This document shows positions 7,829-57,997 of a stretch of 63,288 nt of DNA, piece after piece. The position numbers and the translations under genes are program-made. How positions within the stretch are numbered: the stretch's first letter is position 1; every line of letters starts with the position of its first letter. The notes under the pieces were generated by a model, which saw only the letters and a program-made list of their open reading frames with translations, did not search any database and had not been told where the DNA came from. Source of the stretch: Patescibacteria group bacterium (GTDB lineage: Bacteria > Patescibacteriota > Patescibacteriia > 2-02-FULL-49-11); assembly GCA_040757655.1 (NCBI GenBank), contig JBFLWV010000058.1, positions 1 through 63,288 on the forward strand. Reading direction: 5' to 3'.

Positions 7829-8018
7829 CAAATTTCAAAACCCAAATGTCAAATAAAATCCTAATAACCAATATGAACTCAAAACTCAAAAGGCAAAATT
7901 CAAAGGTTCAATTCAAAAATCAAAAGTTTTGGACTATGACTTGCAATTTTGACTTTTGACCTTTGACTTTTGAATGTAGGCTTGGGATTTTATTGGAAAT
8001 GTGAAATTGGGATTTAGG
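7829..8018. repeat. ~190-bp imperfect palindrome built from A-rich simple repeats
   Basis: The left arm (CAAATTTCAAAACCCAAATGTCAAATAAAATCC...TCAAAAG) is mirrored by the right arm (CTTTTGA...GGATTTTATTGGAAATGTGAAATTGGG). Fills the murB-polA spacer. Confidence 0.8.
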
Positions 8019-8023
8019 ATTTT

Positions 8024-10834
8024 TCACTTGCACTCCTCCCAATTTCTCCCCACCCCCACATACACCTCAATGGGCACCTTCAGCGTGGCGACTGATTCCA
8101 TTTCTTCTTTGACCCATTGTGATACCTTGTCAATCAGTTCGTTTTTTACCTCAATGACCAGTTCGTCGTGCACCTGCAGGAGCATGCGCACGGGGCGGGA
8201 TGCAGGCAGCACGTCGGACAATCCTAATCCATTTTTCAGCCGTGCGTCAACTCTGATCATTGCTTTTTTCATCAGGTCGGCGGCAGTCCCTTGGATCGGG
8301 TGGTTGATCGCCATGCGTTCGGCAGCGGCTCTCAAACCTTGGTGTTCTGCGGCGATTTCGGGAAGATAGCGGCGACGGCCGAAGAGCGTTTCTACATATC
8401 CTTTTTCACGTGCCTCCGCAATAGTGTGGTCGACATACATTTTGATTCCTTTATGCACGCGGAAATAGCGCTCAATAAAGTCTTTTGCTTCATCAATCGT
8501 GAGGCCAGATCCCTCCGCGAGGCCGCGCGCGCCTAATCCGTAGAGGATGCCGAAATTAATAGTTTTTGCTTCTCTGCGTTGCTCCGGCGTTACCTTTTCA
8601 TAGGGGACACCAAGAACGTTCGATGCGGTGCGGCGGTGGATGTCCTCGTTGCGATGGAATGAGGTGATCATGGCGGCATCCCCGGTGAGCGATGCCGCGA
8701 TGCGCAATTCGATCTGGGAATAATCAGCTGAGAGGAGCCGAAAACCCCGATCTGCCACAAACGCTTTGCGGATTTCTCTCCCTTGTTCAGTCCGGATGGG
8801 GATATTTTGCAAATTTGGATTGGATGAGGAAAGGCGGCCGGTCGCTGCCACTGTTTGGTTAAAGTCAGTATGGATGCGCCCCGTTGCGGGATCAACTTGT
8901 GCCGGAAGCGCGTCGAGATAGGTGGAGCAGAGTTTAAACAATTCTCGGTACTCCAAAATCAATTCTATAATTGGATGGGTGCCCTTCAACTTCTCAAGCT
9001 CTCCTGCTGCGGTGGAGATGCCAGTTTTCGTTTTTCCTAAGCCCGTGGTTGAGATTTTGAGCTTCTCAAAAAGGATCACTTTCAACTGGGGGGGAGAGTT
9101 GATATTGAATTCCTGGCCTGCCATTTGGTGTATCTTCCTTTCGAGTCTCTGTAAGGTTTTCTTCACGCTTCGCGCCTGTCCTTTCAGTACGCTCGTGTCA
9201 ATTTTTATCCCCACTTCTTCCATGTCGGCAAGGATGGGGATGAGCGGCATTTCGAGCTCCTCAAGAAGCTGCAAGTTTTTTCGCTCCGCAAGGCGTGCGC
9301 GGTACGGTGCGATAAGCCGGAAGGTGAAATCAGCGTCCTCGCATGAATAATTTGCGATATCTTCATGGGGGACCGTTTCCATACTGATCTGATGAGGTCC
9401 TTTTCCAATGAGTTCTTCAATAGGCTGCATTTGGTATCCGAATTCCGTAAACACAGTCGAGTCAAGATTGTGTTGCCGTGATCCGGGATTTAAGAGGTAA
9501 GATGCCACCATGGTGTCGAAGGTAAATCCACACGCAGCAATGCCGGCGTGGCGCAGGACTTCCATGTCAAATTTCACGTTGTGGCCGTATTTTTCGATTT
9601 TTGGATTTTCTAATATTTCTTTCAATTGTTTGGAAATTGGAAATTGGAAATTGGAAATTACCACGTATTGAGCTTCTCCCTCCTTCCAGCAAAAACTTAT
9701 ACCGAGGAGTTTGTCTTTAAAGGGATTAAGCCCTGTAGTCTCTGTATCAAGGACAAATGATCGTTGTGTTTTTAGTACTCGGAGGAGTGCGTCAAATTTT
9801 TCTTCATCGTCAACCAGCGTATAGCGTGCCCCTTTCCATTCGCGGTGGGGGAGTGAGGTGCGCTCAAAGATGCTTCCTTGCGTGTGGCGCGTGGGTGGTT
9901 GTTTGTCTTCTCGTGAAGCTTTTTGTGTGGCAACCTCCACGGAGGTGGGGATTTTTCCTACCAACGACTGGAATCCCCATTGCCGGAAAAGTTGTACCAG
10001 TGCTTGCGTATCACAGCCACCCACGCGCGCGTCCTCAAGATTGAACATAAGCGGCGCATCTCGGACGATAGTGGCAAGTTTCTGTGAGAGAAGAGCGTCT
10101 TTTTTCCCTTGTATCAGTTTTTCCCGTATGCCAGGTTTTACGTCTGGGGTATCATGAGTCTCAATTCCCTCGTATAACCGATCGAGGGTTTTATAACGTG
10201 ACAGTAACTCCGTCGCGGTTTTCTCCCCAATTCCCTTCACCCCGGGGATGTTATCAGAAGGGTCGCCGCGGAGTGCTTTATAGTCAATCATCTGATTGGG
10301 TGCAAGGCCGAAACGCTCTTTCACTGCATCGGCATCATAGATCATGGTATCGGTGAAACCCTTGCGGAAGGTATAGACGTTCGTGTGTTCGTCAATCAAT
10401 TGAAGGGCATCCAGATCACCCGTCACGATGATTGTCTCAAGGTTGTGTTCTTGTGTTTTCGTGTTTTCGTGTTTTCGTGCTAACGTGCCAATAATGTCAT
10501 CTGCTTCAAAACCGTCTTTCTCAATGACTGGCAGGCGGAATGCGCGGATCATGTCCTTGATGAGCGGGATCTGGTCGTAGAGTTCCTGCGGTTGTGTGAT
10601 GCGCTGCGCTTTATACGCTTCGAACATTTTATCGCGGAAGGTGGGCGCCTTGGTGTCAAATGCGACCGCGCAAAACTTCGGCTTGAGGTCTTTGAGTACT
10701 TTCAGGAACGTGAGCGCAAACCCATAGACCGCATTAACGAGCTTGCCGTCCGTTGTTGTTAAGGGAGGCAGGGCATGGAATGCGCGGTGTAATAAAGCGT
10801 TCCCATCAATAATTACAAATTTTTGTAAAGCCAT
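8024..10834 (-). CDS. polA: DNA polymerase I (5'-3' exo, 3'-5' exo-like and polymerase domains)
   Basis: 936 aa. Motifs: IDGNALLHRAFHA, GDPSDNIPGVKGIGEKTA, LLSADYSQIELRI, RREAKTINFGILYG, QVHDELV. Confidence 0.95.
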   Translation of the reverse strand: MALQKFVIIDGNALLHRAFHALPPLTTTDGKLVNAVYGFALTFLKVLKDLKPKFCAVAFDTKAPTFRDKMFEAYKAQRITQPQELYDQIPLIKDMIRAFRLPVIEKDGFEADDIIGTLARKHENTKTQEHNLETIIVTGDLDALQLIDEHTNVYTFRKGFTDTMIYDADAVKERFGLAPNQMIDYKALRGDPSDNIPGVKGIGEKTATELLSRYKTLDRLYEGIETHDTPDVKPGIREKLIQGKKDALLSQKLATIVRDAPLMFNLEDARVGGCDTQALVQLFRQWGFQSLVGKIPTSVEVATQKASREDKQPPTRHTQGSIFERTSLPHREWKGARYTLVDDEEKFDALLRVLKTQRSFVLDTETTGLNPFKDKLLGISFCWKEGEAQYVVISNFQFPISKQLKEILENPKIEKYGHNVKFDMEVLRHAGIAACGFTFDTMVASYLLNPGSRQHNLDSTVFTEFGYQMQPIEELIGKGPHQISMETVPHEDIANYSCEDADFTFRLIAPYRARLAERKNLQLLEELEMPLIPILADMEEVGIKIDTSVLKGQARSVKKTLQRLERKIHQMAGQEFNINSPPQLKVILFEKLKISTTGLGKTKTGISTAAGELEKLKGTHPIIELILEYRELFKLCSTYLDALPAQVDPATGRIHTDFNQTVAATGRLSSSNPNLQNIPIRTEQGREIRKAFVADRGFRLLSADYSQIELRIAASLTGDAAMITSFHRNEDIHRRTASNVLGVPYEKVTPEQRREAKTINFGILYGLGARGLAEGSGLTIDEAKDFIERYFRVHKGIKMYVDHTIAEAREKGYVETLFGRRRYLPEIAAEHQGLRAAAERMAINHPIQGTAADLMKKAMIRVDARLKNGLGLSDVLPASRPVRMLLQVHDELVIEVKNELIDKVSQWVKEEMESVATLKVPIEVYVGVGRNWEECK
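9632..9659 (-). repeat. in-frame (GGAAATT)4 repeat in polA
   Basis: GGAAATTGGAAATTGGAAATTGGAAATT on the plus strand. Encodes ISNFQFPISK in polA. Confidence 0.9.
10445..10480 (-). repeat. in-frame (GTGTTTTC)3 octamer repeat in polA
   Basis: GTGTTCTTGTGTTTTCGTGTTTTCGTGTTTTCGTGC. Encodes ARKHENTKTQEH. Confidence 0.9.
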
Positions 10835-13535: not shown

Positions 13536-13685
13536 AGAAAAAATTTTCAATGCCTAAAGTCCAAAAATTTTCAATGCTCAATTTTCAATTTCCAAAGAAT
13601 GTCACAATGACTCAATTTTCAAAAGTTTGGTAATTGATTCATTGGGAATTGATTGAAAATTGGTATTTGAAAATTGAAAATTCGT
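13536..13685. repeat. low-complexity inverted repeat between gatC and gatA
   Basis: TTTTCAATG/TTTCAATTTCC words on the left are mirrored by CATTGGGAATTGATTGAAAATTGG...GAAAATTGAAAA on the right. Confidence 0.7.
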
Positions 13686-14523: not shown

Positions 14524-16677
<2,154 letters not shown>

Positions 16678-16681
16678 TAGA

Positions 16682-17197
16682 TTAGGGTCTATACCCTCTC
16701 GACGTCAATTGGTACGTCCCCGGCGCGCCCAAAGGTGGTACCCCATGTTCAAGGTAGAAACGGATGGAGAAATCAGTGCTGGAATTATTGGAGTAGCTAT
16801 AAGCACAGGGCTGTGAGACGCTCTTCACACAAGGCGGGTTTGCGGGCGTGAGGGGATCAAAAGGCGCATGCAGGAGATAGACGGGGTCATCCGGCGAGGC
16901 TACCCAGCCTTGGTTGTCCAATGCGCTTGCGGGAGTAGTGCCAATTATCATGTTTTTCCCTTCAGGATAGGCCCCTTGGGTGTGTTCGTAGAGCGTGAGT
17001 GCAGCGCGCACTTGGCCCAAATCTGCCAGGCGCTTCACGTCCCGTGCCTCCTGCCGCACTTTTTGGATATAACCAAGAGTAAGGGAAGTAAAGACAGTGA
17101 TAATCAACATTACGAAAAAAGCCTCCACCAATGTAAAACCAATCCTCCCCTTGGTAGGGTTATATCGGTAGTTTGGGTGCAGTATATATTTTGCCAT
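16682..17197 (-). CDS. type IV pilin-like protein (prepilin N-terminal cleavage/methylation domain)
   Basis: KGRIG|FTLVEAFFVMLIITVF is a class III signal peptide. ATG at 17197 preferred over TTG at 17203. Confidence 0.75.
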   Translation of the reverse strand: MAKYILHPNYRYNPTKGRIGFTLVEAFFVMLIITVFTSLTLGYIQKVRQEARDVKRLADLGQVRAALTLYEHTQGAYPEGKNMIIGTTPASALDNQGWVASPDDPVYLLHAPFDPLTPANPPCVKSVSQPCAYSYSNNSSTDFSIRFYLEHGVPPLGAPGTYQLTSRGYRP

Positions 17198-17204
17198 GAA
17201 CAAA

Positions 17205-17290
17205 AAATCCTAAATCCTAAATCCTAAATCCTAAACAAATCCAAAAATGGATCGTTTTAGAGTTTAGAGCTTAGAATTTAGAGTTTTGCA
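17205..17290. repeat. (CCTAAAT)4 mirrored by (TTTAGAG)n inverted repeat
   Basis: AATCCTAAATCCTAAATCCTAAATCCTAAAC...TTTTAGAGTTTAGAGCTTAGAATTTAGAGTTTTG. Lies between the adhesin and pilin genes. Confidence 0.8.
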
Positions 17291-22198: not shown

Positions 22199-22295
22199 AG
22201 CTCAAAACTCAAATCTTAGATCTCAAATCCATAACTCAAAGCCCGATAGCTTTTCAGTTTTGCGTTGTGGTTTTGAGTTTTGAGATTTGACATTT
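22199..22295. repeat. CTCAAAA/CCCGATAGC palindromic element, copy 1
   Basis: AGCTCAAAACTCAAATCTTAGATCTCAAATCC...AGCCCGATAGCTTTTCAGTTTTGCGTTGTGGTTTTGAGTTTTGAGATTTGA. Confidence 0.8.
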
Positions 22296-26666: not shown

Positions 26667-26766
26667 AATCCAAAAGCCAAAATGCAAATATCAAAATGAA
26701 AATGAAAAATTTTTAAATTATAGTTTATCATTCTGGGTTTTGGATTTTGGATTTTACATTTGCATG
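26667..26766. repeat. CCAAAAN simple inverted repeat between DUF2723 and YfhO-like genes
   Basis: AATCCAAAAGCCAAAATGCAAATATCAAAATGAAAATG...TTCTGGGTTTTGGATTTTGGATTTTACATTTGCAT. Confidence 0.75.
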
Positions 26767-37633: not shown

Positions 37634-37730
37634 TGTAGCGTGGTAGTGTATCTACCACATCGGGTCGCAGACGAGCCCTGTAGAGCTCCCCCCGGTGGGT
37701 GATTCTACGGGGCGAACTGCGACGCTACAG
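37634..37730. repeat. REP/BIME-like mosaic hairpin element, copy C
   Basis: TGTAGCG-TGGTAG-tgtat-CTACCA...GTCGCAG[GCCCTGTAGA...TCTACGGGGC]CTGCGAC-GCTACAG. Lies in the divergent promoter region between the methyltransferase gene and ileS. Confidence 0.8.
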
Positions 37731-37796
37731 TGAAGAAATGACGTATTTGATTTATAATGGTTTATTCGATACGCTATATTCAATAATATTACTTTT

Positions 37797-40700
37797 ATGG
37801 ATTTTTCGAAAATTGAATTAGAAATATTGGAGTGGTGGCGGAAGAACAGGATATTCGAGAAATCACTCGCAAAACCCTCATCAAAGGGCGATTTTGTGTT
37901 TTATGAGGGGCCGCCGACCGCGAACGGCAAGCCCGGCATCCACCATGTCATTTCGCGCGCGTTCAAGGACATTATTCCGCGCTTCAAGACCATGCGCGGG
38001 TACCGGGTGGCGCGCAAGGGAGGATGGGATACGCACGGGCTCCCGGTTGAACTGGAAGTAGAAAAAACGCTGGGGTTGAAGAATAAGAAGGAGGTAGAGG
38101 CGTATGGCATTGAGGCGTTCAATAAAAAATGCCGCGAGTCAGTATGGAAGTACAAATCAGAGTGGGAAAAATTTACCGAGAGGATGGGGTTTTGGCTTGA
38201 TTTGGAACACGCCTACGTTACGTATGAGGGATCGTATGTAAATGGCCTTTGGGGGGTCATGAAGAAATTCTGGGAACACGGGCTTCTCTATGAGGGACAT
38301 AAAGTAGTGCCCCATTGTCCGCGTTGCGGCACGGCGCTGTCGAGCCATGAGTTGGCGCTGGGTTACCAATCCGTAAAAGATTTGTCACTAACGATTAAAT
38401 TCGAAATCCTAAATCCTAAATCCGAAATAAATTCAAAATTCCAAATTCCAAATGACGGAAAAGTGTTTATTTTATCTTGGACTACTACTCCTTGGACGCT
38501 GCCGGGGAATGTGGCGCTCGCAGTTGGCAATGACATTATGTATGTCATTGCAAGAAACAAGAAACAAGAAACAAGAAACAATGAATATGTGATAGTCGCG
38601 AAAGATCGGTTGAATATTTTGGAAGGTGAATACGAACCCATTGCAGAAGTGAAAGGGGATGACTTAGCCGGCTTGGAGTATGAACCATTATTCGATATCC
38701 CTTCGTTGAAAACAGATACCTCTTATAAAGTATACGCAGCTGATTTTGTAAGCACTACAGAAGGTACTGGCGTGGTACACACGGCAGTGATGTACGGGGA
38801 GGATGATTATCAGCTGGGAACAGAGGTAGGTCTCCCAAAAGTTCATACTGTGGCAGAAGATGGAACATTCAAGAGGCCCGAAATCCCAAATCTCAAATCC
38901 AAAATCCAAAATGATAGTAATATTATGGAAGAGCTTGAGGGGAGATTTGTGAAAGATTCGGAGACGGAAAAATTGATCATTGGCTACCTTGATGAGAAAA
39001 ATTTAATCTTAAAGAAAGAACTCTACGAACATGATTATCCTTTCTGCTGGCGGTGCAAAACTCCTTTGTTGTATTATGCTAAACACAGCTGGTTCGTGGC
39101 GATGTCGAAATTGCGGAATGAATTGATTGAAGCGAACAGTCACATTCATTGGGTTCCTGATTACATCAAGGAAGGGCGCTTCGGCGAGTGGTTGCGGGAG
39201 GTGAAGGATTGGGCGTTTTCCCGCGAACGTTATTGGGGCACACCACTCCCGATTTGGCGATGCCAAATCGGGAAATCCCAAATCCCAAATCCCAAATCCC
39301 AAATAATTTCAAATGACCAAATACAAAATCCAGAAACAGTTGGTGGATGTGGCAGAGTTGAAGTGATCGGCAGCGTGGCGGCACTGGTTCAGAAATCGAA
39401 ACTGAAAAACCGCTATATTTTCATGCGGCATGGGGAAGCGCGTTCAAATGTTGAGAACACCAATAATGCAATAGTATCCAATTCAGATAAATATCCACTC
39501 ACTGACAGAGGGAGGGAGGCAGTAAAGGCTTCTGCGCAACAGGTATGTTCAGAACATATTGATTTCTTAGTTGCCTCTGATTTTGTCCGTACACGTGAGA
39601 CCGCGGAGATTATTGCACGAGCAGCAGGGATAGAGATACGTTATGATGAGCGGTTGAGAGAGTTTCAGACTGGCCTAAAGTATGAAGAAAGGCCAGATCA
39701 AGCATTTGCATCGCTCTTTAGCAGTACTGCAGAACGATTTACGAGAAGAGAAGAAGGAGGAGAACTTTTGGGGGAAGCACTCATACGCATGCAAGCAGTG
39801 GTACGGGATTGTGAAGAACAGTATGAGGGGAAGATCATTGTCATCGTTTCACACGGCGATCCGCTCTGGGTGCTTACCTGGGCGCTTGCGGGAAGCCCGG
39901 GGACTTTAGATGATTTTCCGTATCCGCAGTTTGCGCAGCCCATCATGGTTGATCATGGGGTATTTTTAACAGACGAGCATGGAGAACTTGACCTGCATCG
40001 GCCGCGAGTGGATGAAGTTGAGTTTCCGTGCACGTGCGGCGGTACGATGCGGCGGGTCGCAGAAGTCGCGGATGTATGGTTTGACTCTGGCGCTATGCCG
40101 TTTGCACAATATCCGGAGAATATACAAGCGCTGATCAACGCAGATACAATTCACAATACTTCTGCGTCTATCCGCGTAGATAATCAGCGTAAATCCGCGT
40201 TGTGGCAGTTTCCGGCTGACTTCATCTCTGAAGCGATTGACCAGACGCGCGGATGGTTCTACACCTTGCTCGCAGTGGCGGTAGCGCTTCAGAAAGGTGC
40301 GCCGTATAAAAACGTCATCTGCCTCGGCCACGTCTTAGACGCGAAGGGCAAGAAGATGTCCAAATCCTTAGGGAACATCATTGTTCCGGAAGAAGTATTT
40401 GCGAAGTACGGTGCTGATGCGGTGCGTTGGTACCTCTATACTATGAATGATCCCGGGCTCCCTAAGCGGTTTAATGAGAAAGAGCTGGGGGAGGTAGTGA
40501 AGAAGTTTTTCATGATATTATGGAACGTTGTGTCGTTTCATGCATTGTATCCTCCACAACAAGCTTCCGGCTTACAACTTACGGCTTCACCCTCAAATGT
40601 GTTAGATCGTTGGATTTTGGCTCGTTTGAATCAATTGACGAAATTTGTCACTGAACGGCTCGACGCCTACGACATCACCCCGGCAGGGCGTGCGATTGAA

Positions 40701-41453
40701 GAATTCGTGACCGATCTTTCCACGTGGTACGTGCGGCGGAGCAGAGAGCGCATGAAAGCAGGGGATGAGGAGGGGAGGGCAACACTCAAGTATGTGTTAG
40801 CTGAATTGTCCAAATTAATTGCACCGTTTGCACCCTTTACCGCAGAAGCGCTGTGGCAGAAGCTTACCGCGTCTGGTTTGCGGCATAAGGCTTCAGTGGA
40901 ATCGGTGCATCTGGCTGAGTGGTCGGAGGCAGGAGAAATTGACGCAGAAGTGGTTTCCTTAATGGATATGGTGAGAAAGATTGTGGAAGCGGGGTTGGCG
41001 GCGCGCGCAGAAGCAAAGATGCCCATCAGACAGCCGTTGCAGAGCGCGAGAGTCGCTATACAGAGAACAATGAGCAATGAACAATATATCGAGTTGGTAA
41101 AGGATGAATTGAACGTGAAGGAGATTGTAGTTGGAAAAACAGAAGGGTCGATGAGTGTAGAGCTTGATACCAATTTGACGGAGGAGCTCAAGCTCGAAGG
41201 CATGAAGCGGGAGTTTGTGCGCGCAGTGAACAATTTGCGTAAACAGTCAAAGCTCACGATTAAAGATCGTGTACGATTAGAAATAGTAGATTGTATTGAG
41301 GTACAGAAGTTAATGAGAGAATATAAAAATGAACTTTTCCACGCTATATTAGCAAAGGAGATTACATCTGTAAAAACAGTTACTACTACCAGTCGGTCAA
41401 TAGTTGAGCTTGGTGGTGCAAAGGTCGAGTTTGGTATAGACGTGATACAATGA
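37797..41453 (+). CDS. ileS: isoleucyl-tRNA synthetase (type 2) with inserted histidine-phosphatase-like domain and several repeat-derived inserts
   Basis: PPTANGKPGIHH (HIGH), WTTTPWTLPGN, KMSKSLGN (KMSKS), DVWFDSG. 1218 aa. Insert with FMRHGEARSN...SHGD at 39405-39983. Confidence 0.95.
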   Translation: MDFSKIELEILEWWRKNRIFEKSLAKPSSKGDFVFYEGPPTANGKPGIHHVISRAFKDIIPRFKTMRGYRVARKGGWDTHGLPVELEVEKTLGLKNKKEVEAYGIEAFNKKCRESVWKYKSEWEKFTERMGFWLDLEHAYVTYEGSYVNGLWGVMKKFWEHGLLYEGHKVVPHCPRCGTALSSHELALGYQSVKDLSLTIKFEILNPKSEINSKFQIPNDGKVFILSWTTTPWTLPGNVALAVGNDIMYVIARNKKQETRNNEYVIVAKDRLNILEGEYEPIAEVKGDDLAGLEYEPLFDIPSLKTDTSYKVYAADFVSTTEGTGVVHTAVMYGEDDYQLGTEVGLPKVHTVAEDGTFKRPEIPNLKSKIQNDSNIMEELEGRFVKDSETEKLIIGYLDEKNLILKKELYEHDYPFCWRCKTPLLYYAKHSWFVAMSKLRNELIEANSHIHWVPDYIKEGRFGEWLREVKDWAFSRERYWGTPLPIWRCQIGKSQIPNPKSQIISNDQIQNPETVGGCGRVEVIGSVAALVQKSKLKNRYIFMRHGEARSNVENTNNAIVSNSDKYPLTDRGREAVKASAQQVCSEHIDFLVASDFVRTRETAEIIARAAGIEIRYDERLREFQTGLKYEERPDQAFASLFSSTAERFTRREEGGELLGEALIRMQAVVRDCEEQYEGKIIVIVSHGDPLWVLTWALAGSPGTLDDFPYPQFAQPIMVDHGVFLTDEHGELDLHRPRVDEVEFPCTCGGTMRRVAEVADVWFDSGAMPFAQYPENIQALINADTIHNTSASIRVDNQRKSALWQFPADFISEAIDQTRGWFYTLLAVAVALQKGAPYKNVICLGHVLDAKGKKMSKSLGNIIVPEEVFAKYGADAVRWYLYTMNDPGLPKRFNEKELGEVVKKFFMILWNVVSFHALYPPQQASGLQLTASPSNVLDRWILARLNQLTKFVTERLDAYDITPAGRAIEEFVTDLSTWYVRRSRERMKAGDEEGRATLKYVLAELSKLIAPFAPFTAEALWQKLTASGLRHKASVESVHLAEWSEAGEIDAEVVSLMDMVRKIVEAGLAARAEAKMPIRQPLQSARVAIQRTMSNEQYIELVKDELNVKEIVVGKTEGSMSVELDTNLTEELKLEGMKREFVRAVNNLRKQSKLTIKDRVRLEIVDCIEVQKLMREYKNELFHAILAKEITSVKTVTTTSRSIVELGGAKVEFGIDVIQ
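38403..38452 (+). repeat. in-frame heptamer-unit repeat in ileS (AAATCCT/TTCCAAA)
   Basis: GAAATCCTAAATCCTAAATCCGAAATAAATTCAAAATTCCAAATTCCAAAT encodes EILNPKSEINSKFQIPN. Confidence 0.9.
38551..38580 (+). repeat. in-frame (CAAGAAA)4 repeat in ileS
   Basis: CAAGAAACAAGAAACAAGAAACAAGAAACA encodes ARNKKQETRNN. Confidence 0.9.
38878..38912 (+). repeat. in-frame heptamer repeat in ileS (AAATCCN)
   Basis: CCGAAATCCCAAATCTCAAATCCAAAATCCAAAATG encodes PEIPNLKSKIQN. Confidence 0.9.
39264..39332 (+). repeat. in-frame heptamer repeat in ileS splitting the zinc-knuckle region
   Basis: CAAATCGGGAAATCCCAAATCCCAAATCCCAAATCCCAAATAATTTCAAATGACCAAATACAAAATCCAG encodes QIGKSQIPNPKSQIISNDQIQNP. Confidence 0.9.
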
Positions 41454-46199: not shown

Positions 46200-46574
46200 A
46201 TGAGACAGATACCTCTTCCGTTTCAAGTGATGAAATTAGTAATCATCGATACGGTCCTTGATATCATCATGTGGCCGGTGTGGTGGTTTACGCAAGGGTT
46301 ATGGACCACCTTGCGATGGGTGGGGCGCGGGATCGCGAATGAGTGGTTTGATTTTGGGCTTGGGCCGTGGTTGAAGAGCATGTTCACGCCCATGTATGCA
46401 GATTACTCGCTTGCCGGCCGCGCCATCAGTTTCGTCGCACGCGTTATCATCCTTGCATTCCGTCTCCTCCAATTTTCACTGTGGGTGGTGTTTTATGTGG
46501 TGGGCGTAGCGCTTTACCTCGGGCTTCCTGGTGCGGCCGTATATCTATTAGTTACCTTTTATCATACATCTTAA
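46200..46574 (+). CDS. hypothetical polytopic membrane protein
   Basis: 124 aa with 3-4 hydrophobic segments. Starts 2 nt after the upstream stop. Confidence 0.5.
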   Translation: MRQIPLPFQVMKLVIIDTVLDIIMWPVWWFTQGLWTTLRWVGRGIANEWFDFGLGPWLKSMFTPMYADYSLAGRAISFVARVIILAFRLLQFSLWVVFYVVGVALYLGLPGAAVYLLVTFYHTS

Positions 46575-46683
46575 CTCAAAACGCAAAACTCAAATCTCAA
46601 AACCACAACGCAAAATTAAAAACTATACGGCTTTGGGATTTGAGATATGGATTTGAGTTTTGAGATTTGACCTTTGAGTTTTT
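46575..46683. repeat. CTCAAAA/CCCGATAGC-family element, copy 3 (inverted, diverged centre)
   Basis: CTCAAAACGCAAAACTCAAATCTCAAAACCACAACGCAAAAT...CGGCTTTGGGATTTGAGAT...TTTGAGTTTTGAGATTTGA. Confidence 0.7.
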
Positions 46684-51758: not shown

Positions 51759-53156
51759 ATGATTACGGATGCATCGTTAATGGATAAAATCGTGTCCCTG
51801 GCAAAGCGCCGGGGGTTTGTGTTCCCCGGCAGCGAAATCTACGGAGGCCTTGCCAACTCGTGGGATTACGGGCCGTTGGGGGTTGAACTAAAGAATAACA
51901 TCAAGCAACTATGGTGGAAGCGGTTTGTGCAGAGCATGGACGATATGGTGGGGATTGACACGGCACTCATCATGAATCCAAGGGTGTGGGAAGCCAGCGG
52001 CCATTTGAAGAATTTTAACGATCCCTTGGTAGAGTGCAAGAAATGCCATAGCCGCGCGCGCGCGGATAAGTCTGATGGTACGTGCGTGAATTGTGGAGGT
52101 AAAGATTTTACCCCCGCGAGGCAATTTAATCTCATGTTCAAAACATTCGTGGGCCCTGCAGAGGAGCAGGCGAACGTCGCATACTTCCGTCCCGAGACCG
52201 CTCAAGGGATGTTTGTGAATTTTAAAAACGTATTGGACACCACGCGACGGAGGCTGCCATTCGGTATAGCCCAGATCGGGAAAGCGTTCCGCAATGAAAT
52301 CACGCCTGGGAATTTCATATTCCGCACACGCGAGTTTGAGCAGATGGAAATTGAATACTTTATTTCACCGGATGACGATTGGAAGATTCACTTTGAAAGG
52401 TGGAGTAAGGAAATGAAAGAATGGATGAAAGATATTGGGCTGGATCTTCGTCATGTCCATGGGGCAGAGATTCCCGAAGAGGAACGCGCGCATTACTCAA
52501 AGCGCACGATTGATTTTGAGTATGATTTCCCCTTCGGGAGAAGCGAATTGTATGGCTTGGCATACCGCACTGATGTTGACCTCAAGAACCATCAGGAGAA
52601 TTCAGGGCAGACACTGGAGTACACCGATCCCGAAAGCGGCAAGAAGTTTACGCCGCACGTGATCGAGCCAACGTGGGGAGTGGATCGGTCGGTACTTGCC
52701 GTATTATGTGAGGGTTATCGGGAAGAACCCGCCTCCGCTCAAGCTTCGGGCGAGGCAAGGGGAGAGGGAAAAGATAAAAGAGTATACTTAAAGTTGCCCG
52801 TAACGCTTGCGCCTTTCAAGGTTGCGGTATTTCCTCTGCTTGCGAACAAGCCAAAACTTATGGAGCTCGCGCGTTCAATTTATGACACTTTGCGGCCTCA
52901 TGTTATGACCGCATGGGACGACCGCGGCAACATCGGCAAACGTTATTATTCCCAAGACGAAATCGGCACGCCATTTTGCATCACGGTTGATTTTGAATCG
53001 CTCACGAAAGGGGATGTGACGGTGCGGGACAGGGATACCATGAAACAGGAGAGGATTTCCATACATGAAGTACAGGAGTATATCAGCAATAAACTGGAGT
53101 TTAATTATCAAGGTACAAGTTACAAGAAACAAGATACAAACGTGTTTGGGATTTGA
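51759..53156 (+). CDS. glyQS: glycyl-tRNA synthetase (dimeric class II type)
   Basis: RRGFVFPGSEIYGGLANSWDYGPLG, FRNEITPGNFIFRTREFEQMEIEYF, GVDRSVLA. Confidence 0.9.
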   Translation: MITDASLMDKIVSLAKRRGFVFPGSEIYGGLANSWDYGPLGVELKNNIKQLWWKRFVQSMDDMVGIDTALIMNPRVWEASGHLKNFNDPLVECKKCHSRARADKSDGTCVNCGGKDFTPARQFNLMFKTFVGPAEEQANVAYFRPETAQGMFVNFKNVLDTTRRRLPFGIAQIGKAFRNEITPGNFIFRTREFEQMEIEYFISPDDDWKIHFERWSKEMKEWMKDIGLDLRHVHGAEIPEEERAHYSKRTIDFEYDFPFGRSELYGLAYRTDVDLKNHQENSGQTLEYTDPESGKKFTPHVIEPTWGVDRSVLAVLCEGYREEPASAQASGEARGEGKDKRVYLKLPVTLAPFKVAVFPLLANKPKLMELARSIYDTLRPHVMTAWDDRGNIGKRYYSQDEIGTPFCITVDFESLTKGDVTVRDRDTMKQERISIHEVQEYISNKLEFNYQGTSYKKQDTNVFGI

Positions 53157-54548: not shown

Positions 54549-55583
54549 ATGGTTATCCCGGTAAACACTCTCTCAGACATCTCCTATCGTTCTATATTCC
54601 GCGTCCTCGGAGTCCTTGCGGTGATGGGGTTTCTTTATGTAGTGCGCGATATTATCGCCCTTCTTTTTGTTGCGCTGGTATTCTCAGCCGCTATCGATCC
54701 ATTCGTTGATTCTTTCGCAAAGCGGCAGATACCACGCGCGCTCGGCATCCTTATCGTCTATGTGCTCGTACTTGGCATCTTTGGTATTACGCTTACGCTC
54801 CTCATCCCCCCTTTGGTCACTGAAGTGCGGCAACTTGCGGAGAGTTTCCCCTACTATTACGACAAGCTCTCCATGGGCGTCAACTACCTTCGGGATGCGT
54901 CCGGCGGCGTAGCCAGCAGCGAGAATGTACAACAGATAGTGGGTTCGTTTGAAAAGGCGCTTACTACTGTCACCGCGGGGGTCTTCACCACCATCTCCTC
55001 CATTTTTGGTGGGGTGGTGTCCTTCTTCATCATCCTCGTCCTTACGTTCTATATGGTGGTGGATGAAGATGGTATTAAGAGATTTTTACAGGTCGTCACG
55101 CCCGAGAACGCCCATCAGGGGGTGATAGCACTCACCATAAAAATTCAGGACAAGATTGGGTTGTGGCTCCGTGGACAGCTTATACTCATGCTGATTATTG
55201 CATTACTCACCTTTATCGGGCTTACCCTCATCGGTGTGCCCTACGCCTTAGTGCTCGCGCTTGTCGCAGGCGTCACGGAGATTATTCCTTACGCGGGGCC
55301 CGTGATCGGCGCCATACCCGCCATCTTCATTGCGTTTACTGTCTCACCCTCTATGGGTCTCTGGACAGTATTCTGGTATATCCTTGTGCAGCAAGCAGAG
55401 AATCACCTGATCGTACCCAAGGTGATGCAGAAGACCACGGGTTTAAATCCCATCATCGTGATTTTGGCAGTACTCATCGGCGCCAGACTTTCAGGTATCT
55501 TAGGCGCACTCCTTGCGGTACCGATTGCATCTGCGATTGAAGTGATTATTCATGAGCACTTCGATCACAAAACGACCGTATAA
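54549..55583 (+). CDS. AI-2E family transporter (PerM/UPF0118)
   Basis: ~8 TM with a conserved C-terminal region (VTEIIPYAGPVIGAIPA...ENHLIVPKVM). Confidence 0.8.
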   Translation: MVIPVNTLSDISYRSIFRVLGVLAVMGFLYVVRDIIALLFVALVFSAAIDPFVDSFAKRQIPRALGILIVYVLVLGIFGITLTLLIPPLVTEVRQLAESFPYYYDKLSMGVNYLRDASGGVASSENVQQIVGSFEKALTTVTAGVFTTISSIFGGVVSFFIILVLTFYMVVDEDGIKRFLQVVTPENAHQGVIALTIKIQDKIGLWLRGQLILMLIIALLTFIGLTLIGVPYALVLALVAGVTEIIPYAGPVIGAIPAIFIAFTVSPSMGLWTVFWYILVQQAENHLIVPKVMQKTTGLNPIIVILAVLIGARLSGILGALLAVPIASAIEVIIHEHFDHKTTV

Positions 55584-55682
55584 CTCATATCTCAAATGTC
55601 AAAACTCAAAACCATAACTCAAATCGTAAAGCTATCGGGTTTTAAGATCTGGCTTTGGGATTTGCGTTTTGAGTTTTGAGAT
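55584..55682. repeat. CTCAAAA/CCCGATAGC-family element, copy 4 (inverted)
   Basis: ...TCAAAACTCAAAACCATAACTCAAATCGTAAAGCTATCGGGTTTTAAGATC...GCGTTTTGAGTTTTGAGAT. Confidence 0.8.
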
Positions 55683-56441: not shown

Positions 56442-57883
56442 GCAAGTTCTACATCACCACCACGCTTCCCTATGTGAATGCTGATCCGCATATCGGGTTT
56501 GCGCTGGAAATCGTGCAGGCCGACGTGATTGCGCGGTGGCACCGAAGGGTGGGGGATGAGGTTTTTTTCAATACCGGCACTGACGAGCATGGCTTGAAGA
56601 TTTACCGCGGCGCGCAAGGAGAGGGAATGGATCCGAAAGCATACGCGGATCTCCATGCAGCGAAGTTTGAGGCACTGAAAACCGCACTCAACCTAAGCTA
56701 TAATAATTTCATACGGACCACTGATCCGCATCATGTGGCGGCTGCGCAGGAATTTTGGCGGCGCTGTGCGGAGAAGGGCGACATTTACAAGAAAAATTAC
56801 CGCATTAAATACTGCGTCGGCTGCGAGCTCGAGAAGACGGAATCGGAGCTTGAGGATGGCCGCTGCCCCCTCCATCCCCATCTTGCGCTGGAACAGGTGG
56901 ATGAGGAGAATTATTTTTTCAGGTATTCGCGTTACCAAGATGCTCTATTGGAATTATATAAGAATAATCCGCAGTTTGTCGTGCCGAAGAACAGAATGCT
57001 CGAGATCGTCAAATTTACCGAGCGGGGGCTGCAGGATTTCAGCATATCGCGGCTTAAATCAAAAATGCCATGGGGCGTGCCTGTGCCGGGCGATGATGCG
57101 CAGGTGATGTATGTGTGGTTTGACGCGCTGGTCAATTATATTTCAGCCCTCGGCTGGCCGGACGACCTCCAGAAGTTCAATGCATTCTGGCCGGGCGTGC
57201 AGGTGGCGGGCAAGGACAACCTGCGCCAGCAGTCGTCCATGTGGCAGGCGATGCTCCTCTCTGCCGGGCTCCCGCCATCCACCCAGATATTGATACACGG
57301 GTTTATCACTTCACGAGGACAAAAAATGTCGAAATCGCTCGGCAATGTGGTGAGCCCGTTTGAGTATGTGGAAAAGTTTGGCGCGGACGCGCTTCGGTAT
57401 TACCTTCTTCGGGAAATTCCCACGCTCGATGACGGCGATTTTACGCATGAGCAGTTCCTCGCGCGCTATAATGCAGACCTTGCCAATGGCCTCGGGAATC
57501 TTGTCCAGCGCGTGAGTACTATGATCGCGAAATATTCAATCAATGTAGGGGCGAACGGCCGTTCGCCCGTACAGAGTGTGTTGAGAAAAGAGATTGATAA
57601 TTGTATTCAGCGATATCAGCTCGATCAAGCATTGGCGGTGATTTGGGAAAAAATCGCTGCCTGCGACAAACGTATTGATAACGAAAAACCGTGGGCATTA
57701 GCAAAGGACACTTCCCAGCATGAAAAGTTAGAAGCTTTGTTGTCTAGCTTGGTTGCCGACCTTCGGGAAATAGGCGTTGCGCTTTTGCCCTTCCTTCCCT
57801 GCACTGCGGAGAGTATACTGAAGGTGGTGGGTGCGGAAAAGATTGTGCCACCCGCAAAGCCGCTGTTTCCGAGAGAAACATAA
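56438..57883 (+). CDS. metG: methionyl-tRNA synthetase (short form)
   Basis: YITTTLPYVNADPHIGF (HIGH-type), zinc knuckle CVGCE...CPLH, KMSKSLGN. Confidence 0.9.
   Translation: MSKFYITTTLPYVNADPHIGFALEIVQADVIARWHRRVGDEVFFNTGTDEHGLKIYRGAQGEGMDPKAYADLHAAKFEALKTALNLSYNNFIRTTDPHHVAAAQEFWRRCAEKGDIYKKNYRIKYCVGCELEKTESELEDGRCPLHPHLALEQVDEENYFFRYSRYQDALLELYKNNPQFVVPKNRMLEIVKFTERGLQDFSISRLKSKMPWGVPVPGDDAQVMYVWFDALVNYISALGWPDDLQKFNAFWPGVQVAGKDNLRQQSSMWQAMLLSAGLPPSTQILIHGFITSRGQKMSKSLGNVVSPFEYVEKFGADALRYYLLREIPTLDDGDFTHEQFLARYNADLANGLGNLVQRVSTMIAKYSINVGANGRSPVQSVLRKEIDNCIQRYQLDQALAVIWEKIAACDKRIDNEKPWALAKDTSQHEKLEALLSSLVADLREIGVALLPFLPCTAESILKVVGAEKIVPPAKPLFPRET
57545..57572. repeat. same 20-bp palindrome inside metG CDS
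   Basis: GTAGGGGCGAACGGCCGTTCGCCCGTAC, core 57549-57568. Translated VGANGRSPV. Confidence 0.95.
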
Positions 57884-57997
57884 TCCAAAATCCAAAATCC
57901 AAAATCCAAAATGAAGGTGTCCCGACGCGGTCGGGACGATTCCCCAACATTTTGGATTATGATCTATCATTTTGATTTTTGGTGTTTGGATTTTACA
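57884..57997. repeat. composite element: (CCAAAAT)4 - ATGAAGG - GTCCCGAC hairpin - (ATTTTGG)n, copy 2
   Basis: TCCAAAATCCAAAATCCAAAATCCAAAATGAAGGT-GTCCCGACgcgGTCGGGAC-...CATTTTGGATT...TTTTGATTTTTGGTGTTTGGATTTT. Confidence 0.8.

What the first reader, a model, noticed from the sequence alone, without database searches (positions are those of the whole stretch)
38403..39332. Four heptamer-unit simple repeats translated inside the essential ileS gene
Four tracts lie at 38403-38452, 38551-38580, 38878-38912 and 39264-39332. They are tandem 7-nt units (AAATCCT, CAAGAAA, AAATCCC and similar). The same words build the intergenic inverted repeats elsewhere in the window. They are translated as low-complexity K/N/Q/P/S/I loops (EILNPKSEINSKFQIPN, RNKKQETRNN, PEIPNLKSKIQN, QIGKSQIPNPKSQIISNDQIQNP). 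The last tract splits the zinc-knuckle region. A 7-nt unit is not a multiple of 3, so gain or loss of one unit by slippage would frameshift an essential gene. Either slippage is rare, or the gene is under constant purifying rescue, or population-level on/off variants exist.
Basis: seen in the sequence. Interest (0 to 1): 0.68.

Follow-up and report, generated by a model that had tools for sequence, protein, structure and literature searches.

The report
Seven-base repeat cassettes inside ileS
The isoleucyl-tRNA synthetase gene of this candidate-phyla-radiation (CPR) bacterium carries four translated stretches built from 7-base repeats; such ~31-base repeats are common in this bacterial group, sit in surface loops of the enzyme, and in three related populations the loss of one repeat unit has broken the same gene.

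Summary
Tandem Repeats Finder finds period-7 arrays at 38396-38453, 38551-38581, 38881-38912 and 39273-39304 inside an intact ileS gene (37797-41453). Shuffled sequence gives none.

All four are in-frame insertions in low-confidence coil loops. Three lie in the CP1 editing domain. The fourth splits the second CxxC zinc knuckle (C489...C518).

They are not private oddities. Period 7 dominates tandem repeats across 87 Patescibacteria loci, and array length peaks sharply at 30-32 nt. 37 of 83 ileS genes carry 74 such arrays at recurrent loop hot spots. ileS is about 7-fold enriched over neighbouring genes.

The tracts behave as cassettes. Some are the best-conserved DNA in the gene between relatives. 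Others are replaced wholesale by unrelated heptamers.

Stop codons are avoided by patching every third unit.

Slippage does occur. In three independent relatives, one assembly each lacks exactly one unit in the first-site array, which splits ileS.

I have no population data for this organism.

Best reading: translated members of a clade-wide heptamer-cassette family, filtered by selection. What generates them is unknown.

The parts
37797..41453 (+). ileS (type-2-like isoleucyl-tRNA synthetase, 1218 aa), host of the tracts
   Evidence: ORF. Pfam gives tRNA-synt_1, His_Phos_1, Anticodon_1 and DUF5915. NCBIfam TIGR00392 scores 844 bits against a cut-off of 621. The closest solved structures are 8c8w and 1ile.
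38396..38453 (+). Tract 1 (site 1). It is a composite of TAAATCC x4.7, the junction GAAATAAATTC, and AAATTCC x3.6. It encodes (I)KFEILNPKSEINSKFQIPN, a loop at the entry to the CP1 editing domain.
   Evidence: TRF. pLDDT is 73 and 61 for residues 201-220. A 51-nt exact match to relative P0004 is the longest in the gene. G replaces T at every third unit boundary, where TAA would otherwise be in frame.
38551..38581 (+). Tract 2 (site 2): CAAGAAA x4.4, perfect, encoding ARNKKQETRNN. It lies in a CP1 loop.
   Evidence: TRF. It is a 5-aa insertion relative to 8c8w. Third-position identity to P0003 is 0.91 against a background of 0.44. pLDDT is 70 for residues 251-260.
38881..38912 (+). Tract 3 (site 3): AAATCCA-type x4.6, encoding EIPNLKSKIQN. 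It lies in a CP1 loop.
   Evidence: TRF. It is a 14-aa insertion relative to 8c8w and to P0003/P0004. The loop is 27 aa against a median of 12 in 120 relatives. pLDDT is below 50 at residues 368-372. P0002 has GGAATTA and P0005 has AATTTTC arrays at the same site.
39273..39332 (+). Tract 4 (site 4): AAATCCC x4.6, perfect (39273-39304), plus a degenerate period-7 tail. It encodes KSQIPNPKSQIISNDQIQNP, inserted between C489 and C518 of the second zinc knuckle.
   Evidence: TRF. The loop is 34 aa against a median of 8; 9 of 120 relatives have an insert here. pLDDT is below 50 at residues 493-514. P0005 has AAATCCG x4.6, also perfect, at the same place.
39261..39350 (+). The split CxxC: Cys489 (TGC, 39261-39263) and Cys518 (TGT, 39348-39350)
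   Evidence: C489, C518, C745 and C747 are nearly invariant columns in 85 sequences. Relatives without an insert read WxCxxCG.
41065..41085 (+). Weak fifth array, GAACAAT x3.0 (RTMSNEQY), at a hot spot that carries arrays in five other genomes
   Evidence: TRF. The hot spot at WIN residues 1082-1095 is shown.
40559..40587 (+). Decayed heptamer array (AGCTTCC-like; TRF calls it period 14) at the most-used hot spot, residues 920-935
   Evidence: TRF and sequence. Four related genomes have four unrelated arrays at this site.
9630..9659 (-). In-frame array of the same family in DNA polymerase I: AATTTCC x4.3, VISNFQFPISK
   Evidence: The same word is used in ileS of P0003.
14947..14978 (-). In-frame array in NAD-dependent DNA ligase: [28 protein letters not shown] is changed to CAG exactly where it would fall in frame.
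   Evidence: The same peptide and word occur in ileS of P0003.
53109..53139 (+). In-frame array at the C-terminus of a class II aminoacyl-tRNA synthetase (CAAGATA-type)
17205..17286 (.). Intergenic inverted pair: AAATCCT x4.4 (perfect) facing TTTAGAG x4.4. Same word and same 4-units-plus-AAACAAAT layout as tract 1.
22201..22290 (.). Intergenic heptamer-periodic hairpin: 6-bp helices separated by one mismatch per unit
46573..46682 (.). Intergenic heptamer-periodic hairpin (AACTCAA / TTTGAGT)
57882..57975 (.). Hairpin starting at the stop of metG. Its 5' arm is AATCCAA x4.4 (perfect), the word of tract 3.

Best explanation
The four tracts are translated, in-frame copies of a class of short heptanucleotide cassettes. 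A cassette is about 31 nt, roughly 4.4 units, sometimes two arrays in tandem. The class pervades Patescibacteria genomes.

Shown:
- The cassettes are densest in intergenic spacers, where inverted pairs form long hairpins with one mismatch per 7-nt unit.
- They also occur inside genes, above all in ileS, at a limited set of surface loops.

Inferred:
- They are made at the DNA level in one step, by insertion or wholesale replacement of a preformed array. They do not grow unit by unit, because in a single-copy essential gene every single-unit intermediate is a frameshift. Coding and intergenic arrays also share the same sharp length mode.
- Selection then filters them. Survivors keep the frame. 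They are stop-free on the sense strand or are patched at every third unit. They carry the A-rich strand as sense, which gives K/N/Q/S/P/I-rich coil. They sit in loops that do not disturb the fold, including the tip of a zinc knuckle.
- Once fixed, a cassette either persists almost unchanged or homogenised, or is swapped for an unrelated heptamer array.

The arrays do slip. Single-unit deletions that split ileS are seen in three related populations. The tracts are therefore a standing mutational liability that purifying selection has to police. The generator of the arrays and the reason for the 31-nt length are unknown.
For: - The tracts are real and non-random.
- They are insertions in variable loops relative to 120 relatives and to PDB 8c8w/1ile.
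- The AlphaFold model is confident overall (mean pLDDT 88.7, pTM 0.84). Its low-confidence coil falls at residues 201-220, 251-260, 361-380 and 491-520.
- The class is clade-wide. In 87 loci (1.56 Mb) TRF finds 166 period-7 and 78 period-14 arrays, against 53 or fewer for any other period. 68 of 153 arrays are 30-32 nt long.
- 74 arrays occur in 37 of 83 ileS genes, at about 13 recurrent hot spots, with many different units.
- Filter: array density is 0.80 per 10 kb in coding sequence and 2.12 in non-coding. Stop-containing consensus units make up 35% on the sense strand, 55% on the antisense strand and 58-68% in intergenic arrays. A exceeds T on the sense strand in 92 of 109 coding arrays. 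Length modes are the same in coding and intergenic arrays.
- Stop patching is visible in tract 1 (G at every third boundary) and in LigA (TAG changed to CAG).
- Cassette behaviour, persistence: tract 1 shares a 51-nt exact run with P0004; the next longest run is 23 nt. Third-position identity there is 1.00 against a background of 0.45. Tract 2 against P0003 gives 0.91 against 0.44.
- Cassette behaviour, replacement: sisters P0003 and P0004 (77% aa identity) fall to 0.36-0.68 nt identity exactly across sites 1-2, each having replaced one cassette. Four unrelated arrays occupy the site at residues 920-935 in four relatives, and P0003 has a young 39-nt insertion.
- Copies from three different ileS sites in five genomes align in register and share a 4-units-plus-AAAYAAATTC junction.
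- Homogenisation: site 4 is perfect in both the window (AAATCCC) and P0005 (AAATCCG), at 50% aa identity.
- Slippage: exact 7-nt unit deletions are seen in L087, L090 and L092. In each comparison it is the only indel within ileS.
Against: - No mechanism that makes arrays of about 4.4 units is identified, so one-step birth is an argument, not an observation.
- The shared vocabulary of words across distant genomes (AAATCCN, AATTTTC, AATTTCC, AGCTTCC, CAAGAWA) is not explained by a random generator plus a filter.
- The 7-fold enrichment in ileS is also unexplained. ArgRS and UvrC are likewise enriched, while MetRS and a class II aaRS are not. This could point to a function at protein or nucleic-acid level.
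- Near-identity of tract 1 with P0004 could reflect a short recombination tract rather than constraint. The 43 nt downstream are also somewhat elevated.
- In one assembly each from 3 of the 15 clusters examined, the broken allele is the assembled consensus. That is uncomfortable for a purely deleterious allele.
- No reads or second assembly of this organism were available.
Confidence: 0.62

Rival explanations
1. Phase-variable switch. The arrays, especially the one at the entry to the CP1 editing domain, are contingency loci. Reversible loss or gain of one unit toggles IleRS between a full-length enzyme and a split or editing-less (or leaky) form, giving population heterogeneity in translation fidelity or growth.
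For: - Three independent one-unit deletions were found, all in perfect arrays at site 1, each as the assembled consensus of a sample or MAG.
- They account for 3 of the 5 gene-disrupting differences I could resolve among the 15 clusters examined.
- The split removes the WTTTPWTLPGN editing motif from both ORFs.
- From my own knowledge, not tested here: class I synthetases split within CP1 can reassemble, and editing-deficient synthetases occur naturally in reduced parasites.
Against: - ileS is normally single-copy and essential.
- Arrays of about 4 units are short for a useful switching rate.
- Only deletions were seen. No +1 alleles and no evidence of reversibility were found.
- Arrays occur at about 13 sites and in other housekeeping genes, where switching makes no sense.
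- The window's own site-1 tract is imperfect (84-94% match), so it is a poor switch.
- Allele frequencies are unknown.
Confidence: 0.12
2. Protein-level function. The Lys/Asn/Gln-rich loops are selected appendages, for example extra tRNA or nucleic-acid affinity. The heptamer periodicity is only the way they arose.
For: - Hosts are mostly nucleic-acid enzymes: IleRS, ArgRS, UvrC, PolA, LigA, TGT.
- There is strong A-sense bias, which gives basic, hydrophilic peptides.
- Site-1 peptides of the form KFEI(L/R)NPKSE(I/T) recur in many lineages.
Against: - Peptides at one site differ radically between relatives: KSQIPNP, FSIFNFQ, GIRNEELG.
- Hydrophobic T-rich versions are tolerated.
- Many arrays are perfect at the nucleotide level, which protein selection does not require.
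- Most relatives lack any insert at sites 3 and 4.
- All four loops are predicted to be disordered.
Confidence: 0.15
3. Nucleic-acid-level element. The arrays are binding sites or structural signals in DNA or mRNA, for example for a protein that reads one heptamer per subunit such as a cold-shock or S1-type domain. They are conserved for that reason even inside genes.
For: - The tracts are the best-conserved synonymous sites in the gene in three pairwise comparisons.
- Distant genomes share a vocabulary of words, and the array length is fixed.
- The same words are used in intergenic hairpins.
- Heptamer-per-monomer binding by CspB is cited in PMC4679880.
Against: - The words are too diverse for one sequence-specific reader.
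- Arrays are replaced by unrelated words at the same site.
- Hairpins show no consistent strand preference relative to transcription: 4 of 9.
- There is no Rfam match.
Confidence: 0.12
4. Ordinary microsatellites that expanded in place by stepwise replication slippage and are simply tolerated.
For: [quoted passage not shown]
- Single-unit slippage is directly seen.
Against: - Every single-unit step inside ileS is a frameshift.
- The length distribution is sharply peaked at 30-32 nt rather than geometric, and is identical in coding and intergenic DNA.
- There are no 7.4-unit coding arrays, which would be expected from steps of +/-3 units.
- Units are replaced wholesale.
Confidence: 0.08
5. Assembly or polishing artefact.
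For: Repeats are error-prone in assemblies. This organism is known from a single contig.
Against: - The tracts keep a 1218-aa frame open.
- Tract 1 is 97% identical over 70 nt in an independent assembly of a 68%-identical relative.
- Tract 2 recurs in P0003, and a site-4 array in P0005.
- The arrays are shorter than typical assembly k-mers.
Confidence: 0.02

Closest known systems
Over-represented heptameric simple sequence repeats of bacteria: Xanthomonas GGGAATC, Nostoc GGGGAYT, cyanobacterial STRR heptamers (PMC4692102)
   Same: The unit is 7 nt. There is a clear preference for about four units. Arrays are mostly intergenic near gene ends, sometimes as inverted pairs, and several words occur per genome.
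   Different: [quoted passage not shown] Here the words are A/T-rich with no G-tracts, yet show the same four-unit mode. They also sit inside essential genes, and many different words coexist.
TAACTGA direct repeats of marine Beggiatoaceae, cyanobacteria and Bacteroidetes (PMC4679880)
   Same: These are heptamer direct repeats of 2-6 copies spread over a genome. The orientation allowed in ORFs is dictated by stop codons. A few are translated.
   Different: There is one dominant word, placed just upstream of start codons and proposed to be a translational regulator site. The ORFs that contain it are mostly short hypothetical proteins, not conserved loops of housekeeping enzymes.
Rickettsia palindromic elements (RPEs) and other MITEs inserted in frame (PMC10969869)
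   Same: These are dispersed repeats found both between genes and in frame inside unrelated housekeeping genes, at positions compatible with the protein fold.
   Different: RPEs are about 150 bp, have conserved family sequences and palindromic ends, and are not tandem repeats. Here the units are 31-65 nt, consist of tandem heptamers of many words, and occur in genes as single A-rich arms. No terminal inverted repeats or target-site duplications were identified.
Tandem repeats of Borg elements that create disordered regions in proteins (PMC9879509)
   Same: Perfect nucleotide tandem repeats lie inside ORFs. They are translated into low-complexity or disordered segments, turn over rapidly and are A-biased.
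   Different: In Borgs every ORF repeat has a unit length divisible by three, so slippage is frame-neutral. Here the unit is 7 nt, so each unit is read in a different frame and any single-unit change is a frameshift.
Contingency loci: phase-variable SSRs of Haemophilus, Neisseria and Moraxella (background cited)
   Same: A repeat whose unit is not a multiple of three lies inside an ORF. Unit loss shifts the frame. Broken alleles are seen in natural samples.
   Different: Contingency loci sit in dispensable surface or restriction genes, usually near the 5' end, with many more copies and 1-5-nt units. Here the host is an essential synthetase, arrays have about 4 copies, there are several arrays per gene, and the arrays are conserved across deep divergence.

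Membership tests
Isoleucyl-tRNA synthetase (ileS) | Score above the curated cut-off of the ileS equivalog model; class I catalytic core with KMSKS; CP1 editing domain | tested here: met
   TIGR00392 scores 844.5 bits against a cut-off of 621.4. Pfam gives tRNA-synt_1 and Anticodon_1. KMSKS and WTTTPWTLPGN are invariant in the alignment. The best PDB hits are IleRS 8c8w and 1ile.
Tandem heptanucleotide SSR class (STRR-like / heptameric SSRs) | Head-to-tail copies of a 7-nt unit, in excess over chance and over other periods | tested here: met
   (19 arrays against 0 in shuffles). Period 7 dominates in 87 loci.
Tandem heptanucleotide SSR class (STRR-like / heptameric SSRs) | Predominantly intergenic, under-represented in coding DNA | tested here: inconclusive
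   Density is 2.6-fold lower in coding DNA overall (0.80 against 2.12 per 10 kb). However, ileS itself has 2.60 per 10 kb, as dense as intergenic DNA.
Contingency locus (phase-variable SSR) | Unit number varies between cells or strains and switches the reading frame on and off | tested here: inconclusive
   One-unit deletions that break ileS were found in three related populations. No +1 alleles, no reversibility and no allele frequencies were found. There are no data for the window's own population.
Contingency locus (phase-variable SSR) | Host gene is dispensable or environment-facing, so that OFF is viable | tested here: not met
   The host is the ileS equivalog. Other hosts are PolA, LigA, ArgRS and UvrC.
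MITE / RPE-like mobile repeat | Dispersed copies of a recognisable consensus at non-orthologous sites | tested here: inconclusive
   Seven copies from three ileS sites in five genomes align in register and share a junction motif. P0003 has the tract-1 composite at a different site. However, periodic low-complexity DNA aligns easily, and a strict pattern found only the window and P0004.
MITE / RPE-like mobile repeat | Terminal inverted repeats and target-site duplications; a cognate transposase | not tested
   No TIR or TSD was evident at the one young insertion inspected, but this was not searched for systematically. No transposase was sought.
Borg-type amino-acid tandem repeats | Nucleotide unit length divisible by three, giving perfect amino-acid repeats | tested here: not met
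   The unit is 7 nt. The peptide period is 7 aa per 21 nt, with only about 1.5 peptide repeats. The Borg rule is from PMC9879509.

The most novel reading that the evidence does not exclude
Patescibacteria have an undescribed repeat system that writes fixed-length (about 31 nt) heptanucleotide cassettes into their genomes, with preferred hosts (IleRS, ArgRS, UvrC). The cassette at the entry to the IleRS editing domain would then act as a slippage switch: losing one unit converts the enzyme into a split, editing-motif-less or leaky form that is viable and reaches high frequency in natural populations. That would amount to heritable, reversible control of an essential synthetase or of translational fidelity.
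Probability: 0.12. Interest if true: 0.88.

Novelty: new variant of a known kind. Interest (0 to 1): 0.7.

Why it matters
Repeats whose unit is not a multiple of three are thought to be excluded from essential genes, or to mark genes meant to switch off. Here they are embedded, conserved and recurrent in a core translation enzyme across a very large bacterial radiation. Natural alleles exist in which one slipped unit breaks the gene.

This gives a concrete system for three questions:
- How do streamlined genomes with reduced repair tolerate internal mutational hot spots?
- What produces the long-noted excess of heptameric repeats and their preference for about four units? G-quadruplex formation cannot explain it here.
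- How is new disordered loop sequence added to ancient enzymes?

There is also a practical point. Such tracts are a likely cause of 'split' or 'pseudogenised' synthetase calls in CPR metagenome-assembled genomes (MAGs).

Tried and rejected
- **Metagenome scan** for contigs carrying tract-1 flanks with any unit number. It found only the P0004 contig, so there are no population data for the window.
- **Apparent ileS frameshifts** in L070 and L085 are scaffold gaps of N. An apparent repeat-length difference at L002 position 7940 is also an N gap.
- **The split gene in the P0045 cluster** is a 120-nt deletion, not array-related. That gene has no period-7 arrays.
- **Rfam.** Nothing in the whole window at gathering thresholds, and nothing in the ileS leader at E<=1.
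- **RNA-level terminator idea for the hairpins.** The more stable strand matches the transcribed strand in only 4 of 9 cases.
- **Replication origin** at the gene-orientation switch near 37.7 kb. GC skew does not change sign.
- **Strict regular expression** for the tract-1 composite across all loci. Only the window and P0004 match, so I do not claim a well-defined mobile element.
- **Simple constraint as the reading of tract-1 conservation.** The mosaic pattern shows that recombination or cassette exchange cannot be separated from constraint.
- **Literature searches** for heptanucleotide repeats in Patescibacteria/CPR, and for IleRS with a histidine-phosphatase insert. No papers were found in the held library. 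PMC1895974 is not held there.
Full report

Yes. Tandem Repeats Finder reports the following period-7 arrays (sequence):

| Coordinates | Unit | Copies | Match |
|---|---|---|---|
| 38396-38428 | TAAATCC | 4.7 | 84% |
| 38429-38453 | AAATTCC | 3.6 | 94% |
| 38551-38581 | CAAGAAA | 4.4 | 100% |
| 38881-38912 | AAATCCA | 4.6 | 88% |
| 39273-39304 | AAATCCC | 4.6 | 100% |

The last array has a degenerate period-7 tail to about 39332. All lie in one open frame, 37797-41453 (1218 aa).

The window has 19 period-7 arrays with TRF score >=40, against none in 50 dinucleotide-preserving shuffles. ileS has 5, against none in 200 shuffles. Of the 81 TRF rows for the window, 31 have period 7; no other period has more than 8.

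**2. What is the host gene?**

The protein hits Pfam tRNA-synt_1, Anticodon_1 and DUF5915, with a His_Phos_1 domain inserted at residues 541-701. It passes the NCBIfam ileS equivalog TIGR00392, at 844 bits against a cut-off of 621. The closest solved structures are Priestia megaterium IleRS2 (8c8w) and Thermus thermophilus IleRS (1ile).

The nearest database relatives are Candidatus Uhrbacteria and other Patescibacteria proteins, at 65-66% identity. All 120 best hits share the His_Phos_1 insertion. The organism is therefore a CPR/Patescibacteria bacterium.

**3. Are the tracts insertions, and where do they sit?**

Against 8c8w:
- Tract 1 is a 13-residue insertion.
- Tract 2 is a 5-residue insertion.
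- Tract 3 is a 14-residue insertion.
- The alignment breaks off at tract 4.

Loop lengths between conserved anchors, across 120 relatives:

| Site | Median (aa) | Window (aa) |
|---|---|---|
| 1 | 23 | 27 |
| 2 | 16 | 20 |
| 3 | 12 | 27 |
| 4 | 8 | 34 |

Sites 1-3 lie in the CP1 editing domain. The isolated editing-domain structure 1wk8 aligns to residues 188-385.

Site 4 lies between the two cysteines of a CxxC knuckle. Relatives read WxCxxCG, while the window reads WRC489-28 residues-C518G. C489, C518, C745 and C747 are nearly invariant columns.

An AlphaFold2 model built on 85 sequences is confident overall (mean pLDDT 88.7, pTM 0.84). Confidence drops at the tracts:

| Residues | Block pLDDT values |
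|---|---|
| 201-220 | 73, 61 |
| 251-260 | 70 |
| 361-380 | 59, 73 |
| 491-520 | 47, 40, 64 |

The segments 368-372 and 493-514 fall below 50, and all are coil.

**4. Selection has shaped the tracts.**

A heptamer array is read in all three frames within 21 nt. A unit that contains a stop trinucleotide must therefore be altered at every third unit.

Tract 1 shows this. The sequence TTC-G-AAATCC-T-AAATCC-T-AAATCC-G-AAAT has G instead of T at the two boundaries where TAA would be in frame. The intergenic copy at 17205-17235 is a perfect (AAATCCT)4.4.

The in-frame array in the window's DNA ligase does the same, changing TAG to CAG where it would be in frame.

Across all loci:
- The consensus unit contains a stop on the sense strand in 35% of 109 coding arrays.
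- The figure is 55% on their antisense strand and 58-68% for 38 intergenic arrays.
- A exceeds T on the sense strand in 92 of 109 coding arrays.

**5. The tracts belong to a clade-wide family.**

I fetched the ileS loci of four close relatives and 80 further Patescibacteria genomes.

Over these 87 loci (1.56 Mb), TRF finds 166 period-7 and 78 period-14 arrays, against at most 53 for any other period. 52 loci have at least one period-7 array.

Array length has a sharp mode: 68 of 153 arrays are 30-32 nt long. The mode is the same for coding and intergenic arrays.

In 83 ileS genes there are 74 arrays in 37 genes. They cluster at about 13 recurrent positions, given here in window residues: 200-224, 245-262, 276-286, 299-310, 342-345, 360-377, 392-408, 493-513, 771-802, 920-935, 1021-1035, 1044-1051 and 1082-1095. 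Many different units are used.

ileS carries 71 of the 109 coding arrays. That is 2.60 per 10 kb against 0.35 for other ORFs in the same loci (binomial p = 2e-24). Other hosts compare as follows:
- ArgRS is enriched: 13 arrays in 51 genes.
- UvrC is enriched: 6 arrays in 3 genes.
- MetRS and a class II synthetase are not enriched.

In the window itself, DNA polymerase I, DNA ligase and a class II synthetase each carry an in-frame array.

Intergenic arrays usually come as inverted pairs, with the A-rich arm followed by the T-rich arm. They fold into long hairpins of 6-bp helices separated by one mismatch per unit.

**6. The tracts behave as cassettes.**

Evidence for persistence:
- Between the window and P0004 (68% aa identity, third-position identity 0.45), tract 1 has third-position identity 1.00.
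- Tract 1 also contains a 51-nt exact match to P0004. The next longest in the gene is 23 nt.
- Tract 2 against P0003 has third-position identity 0.91, against a background of 0.44. Tracts 4 and 1 are the top windows against P0005.
- Site 4 is a perfect array in both the window (AAATCCC x4.6) and P0005 (AAATCCG x4.6), with the same AAATA junction, although the proteins are only 50% identical. I infer concerted change of all units from this.

Evidence for replacement:
- P0003 and P0004 are sisters (77% aa identity, typically 0.85-0.95 nt identity).
- Across sites 1-2 they fall to 0.36-0.68 nt identity. P0003 carries (AATTTTC)4.3 at site 1, and P0004 carries an unrelated sequence at site 2.
- At the residues 920-935 hot spot, four relatives have four unrelated arrays. 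P0003 also has a 39-nt array-bearing insertion that is absent from the other three.
- The tract-1 composite, (AAATCCN)n plus (AAATTCN)n, recurs at a different ileS site in P0003 and in L069. Seven copies from three sites in five genomes align in register.

Every single-unit change inside ileS is a frameshift, and coding arrays share the intergenic length mode. I therefore infer that arrays enter genes in one step as preformed units and do not grow in place. This is an argument, not an observation. The generator is unknown.

**7. Do the arrays slip?**

Yes, in relatives. I examined 15 clusters of at least 90%-identical proteins and found three split genes whose DNA I could compare with intact alleles.

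| Case | Broken allele | Intact allele(s) | Missing unit | Rest of the comparison |
|---|---|---|---|---|
| a | L087 (ENA ERZ27254842) | three other assemblies of the P0003 population | AATTTTC, from the perfect site-1 array | 3 single-base differences in 3.8 kb |
| b | L090 (ENA ERZ27293400) | L091 (JGI 3300025150, P0074 population) | CAAATTC, from the site-1 array | 1 mismatch in 7,881 nt |
| c | L092 (GCA_027422915.1) | L093 (GCA_027327665.1, P0056 population, 97% identity) | AAACTCA, from the site-1 array | the only indel within ileS |

In each case ileS is split into an N-terminal fragment and a C-terminal ORF beginning at M-ALAV or MGSDIEY. Neither piece encodes the conserved WTTTPWTLPGN editing motif.

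As a baseline, two other disruptions in these clusters are not array-related. Two apparent frameshifts among the 87 loci are scaffold gaps.

I cannot tell whether these alleles are majority, minority or artefactual without reads. For the window's own organism there is only one contig and no other matching metagenome contig. In the window, any one-unit change in any tract would truncate IleRS within 6-49 residues.

**8. Comparison with what is known.**

- An excess of heptameric repeats in bacteria, and a preference for four units, have been described for G-rich words in Xanthomonas and Nostoc. There the preference was attributed to G-quadruplexes, and the repeats avoid coding DNA (PMC4692102).
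- TAACTGA repeats of Beggiatoaceae are another heptamer family. Their orientation in ORFs is limited by stop codons (PMC4679880).
- Rickettsia palindromic elements are the classic case of repeats inserted in frame into housekeeping genes (PMC10969869).
- Borg tandem repeats create disordered protein segments, but their unit lengths are always divisible by three (PMC9879509).

The present case combines features of all of these and differs from each. The words are A/T-rich and diverse, with the same four-unit mode. The arrays are as dense in ileS as in intergenic DNA and recur at the same loops of essential enzymes. They are deeply conserved yet swappable. The 7-nt unit makes each one a frameshift hazard.

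I found no paper on heptanucleotide repeats in Patescibacteria in the held library.

**9. Verdict.**

It is better described as a family of fixed-length heptamer cassettes filtered by selection than as local microsatellites.

Still unexplained:
- what makes the arrays;
- why they are about 31 nt long;
- why distant genomes share the same words;
- why ileS, ArgRS and UvrC are preferred hosts;
- whether the recurrent site-1 deletions are merely deleterious or a tolerated or used state.

Noticed in passing
window 39417-39899 (ileS residues 541-701): A histidine-phosphatase (phosphoglycerate-mutase-like, RHG motif) domain is inserted into IleRS between the two halves of the second zinc site (C489/C518 ... 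C745/C747). All 120 best database hits share it, so it is a Patescibacteria-wide architecture. AlphaFold models it confidently. No paper linking IleRS and a histidine phosphatase was found in the held library.
   Followed up: partly
window 7876-7973, 13566-13682, 16579-16683, 17205-17286, 22201-22290, 26667-26755, 46573-46682, 55582-55680, 57882-57975: Intergenic inverted pairs of heptamer arrays, usually at gene 3' ends. They fold into long hairpins made of 6-bp helices with one mismatch per 7-nt unit, A-rich arm first and T-rich arm second. The more stable strand does not track the direction of transcription (4 of 9). There is no Rfam match.
   Followed up: partly
window 9630-9659 (polA), 14947-14978 and 14752-14770 (ligA), 53109-53139 (class II aaRS): Other essential genes carry in-frame heptamer arrays using words that also appear in ileS of a different genome: AATTTCC gives ISNFQFP, and AGCTTCC gives [10 protein letters not shown]. 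The ligA array has TAG changed to CAG exactly where it would be in frame.
   Followed up: partly
loci L007-L086 (for example ArgRS at L065:8155-9834; UvrC at L049:21320-22684): Across Patescibacteria the coding arrays are concentrated in a few hosts: ileS 2.60, ArgRS 1.53 and UvrC about 15 per 10 kb, against 0.35 for all ORFs other than ileS. MetRS and a class II synthetase are not enriched. No explanation was found.
   Followed up: partly
window 10445-10479 (polA, minus strand): An 8-nt-unit array (sense CACGAAAA x4.4) is also translated in frame (ARKHENTKTQEH) in DNA polymerase I, so the phenomenon is not strictly limited to 7-nt units.
   Followed up: no
window 37746-37784, upstream of ileS; also L001, L002 and L004 just upstream of their ileS: A conserved motif, TTTGATTTnTAnTGnTTTnTTCGATACGCTA, lies 15-100 nt upstream of ileS in all four Uhrbacteria-like genomes. 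It is promoter-like. The window and P0003 also share a GC-rich, possibly structured segment further upstream (37637-37730). There is no Rfam match at E<=1.
   Followed up: partly
ileS of L001 (P0004), gene nt about 750-1000, compared with L002, L006 and the window: ileS genes of close relatives are mosaics. P0004 carries a long insertion after site 2 that resembles the one in the distant P0005 rather than its sister P0003. This suggests recombination between lineages within the editing domain.
   Followed up: no
window 4470-4522 (minus-strand TPM-domain protein, residues 273-290): A Gly/Phe-rich C-terminal tail (FGGGFGGGGGGFGGFGGG) is encoded by a period-21/period-9 repeat. It is an ordinary frame-compatible repeat, in contrast to the heptamers.
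   Followed up: no
window 40152-40193 (ileS residues 786-799) and 40875-40892 (residues 1027-1032): Two further low-confidence (pLDDT below 50) lineage-specific loops in IleRS lie at positions that carry heptamer arrays in other genomes (hot spots 771-802 and 1021-1035). They may be fully decayed cassettes.
   Followed up: no
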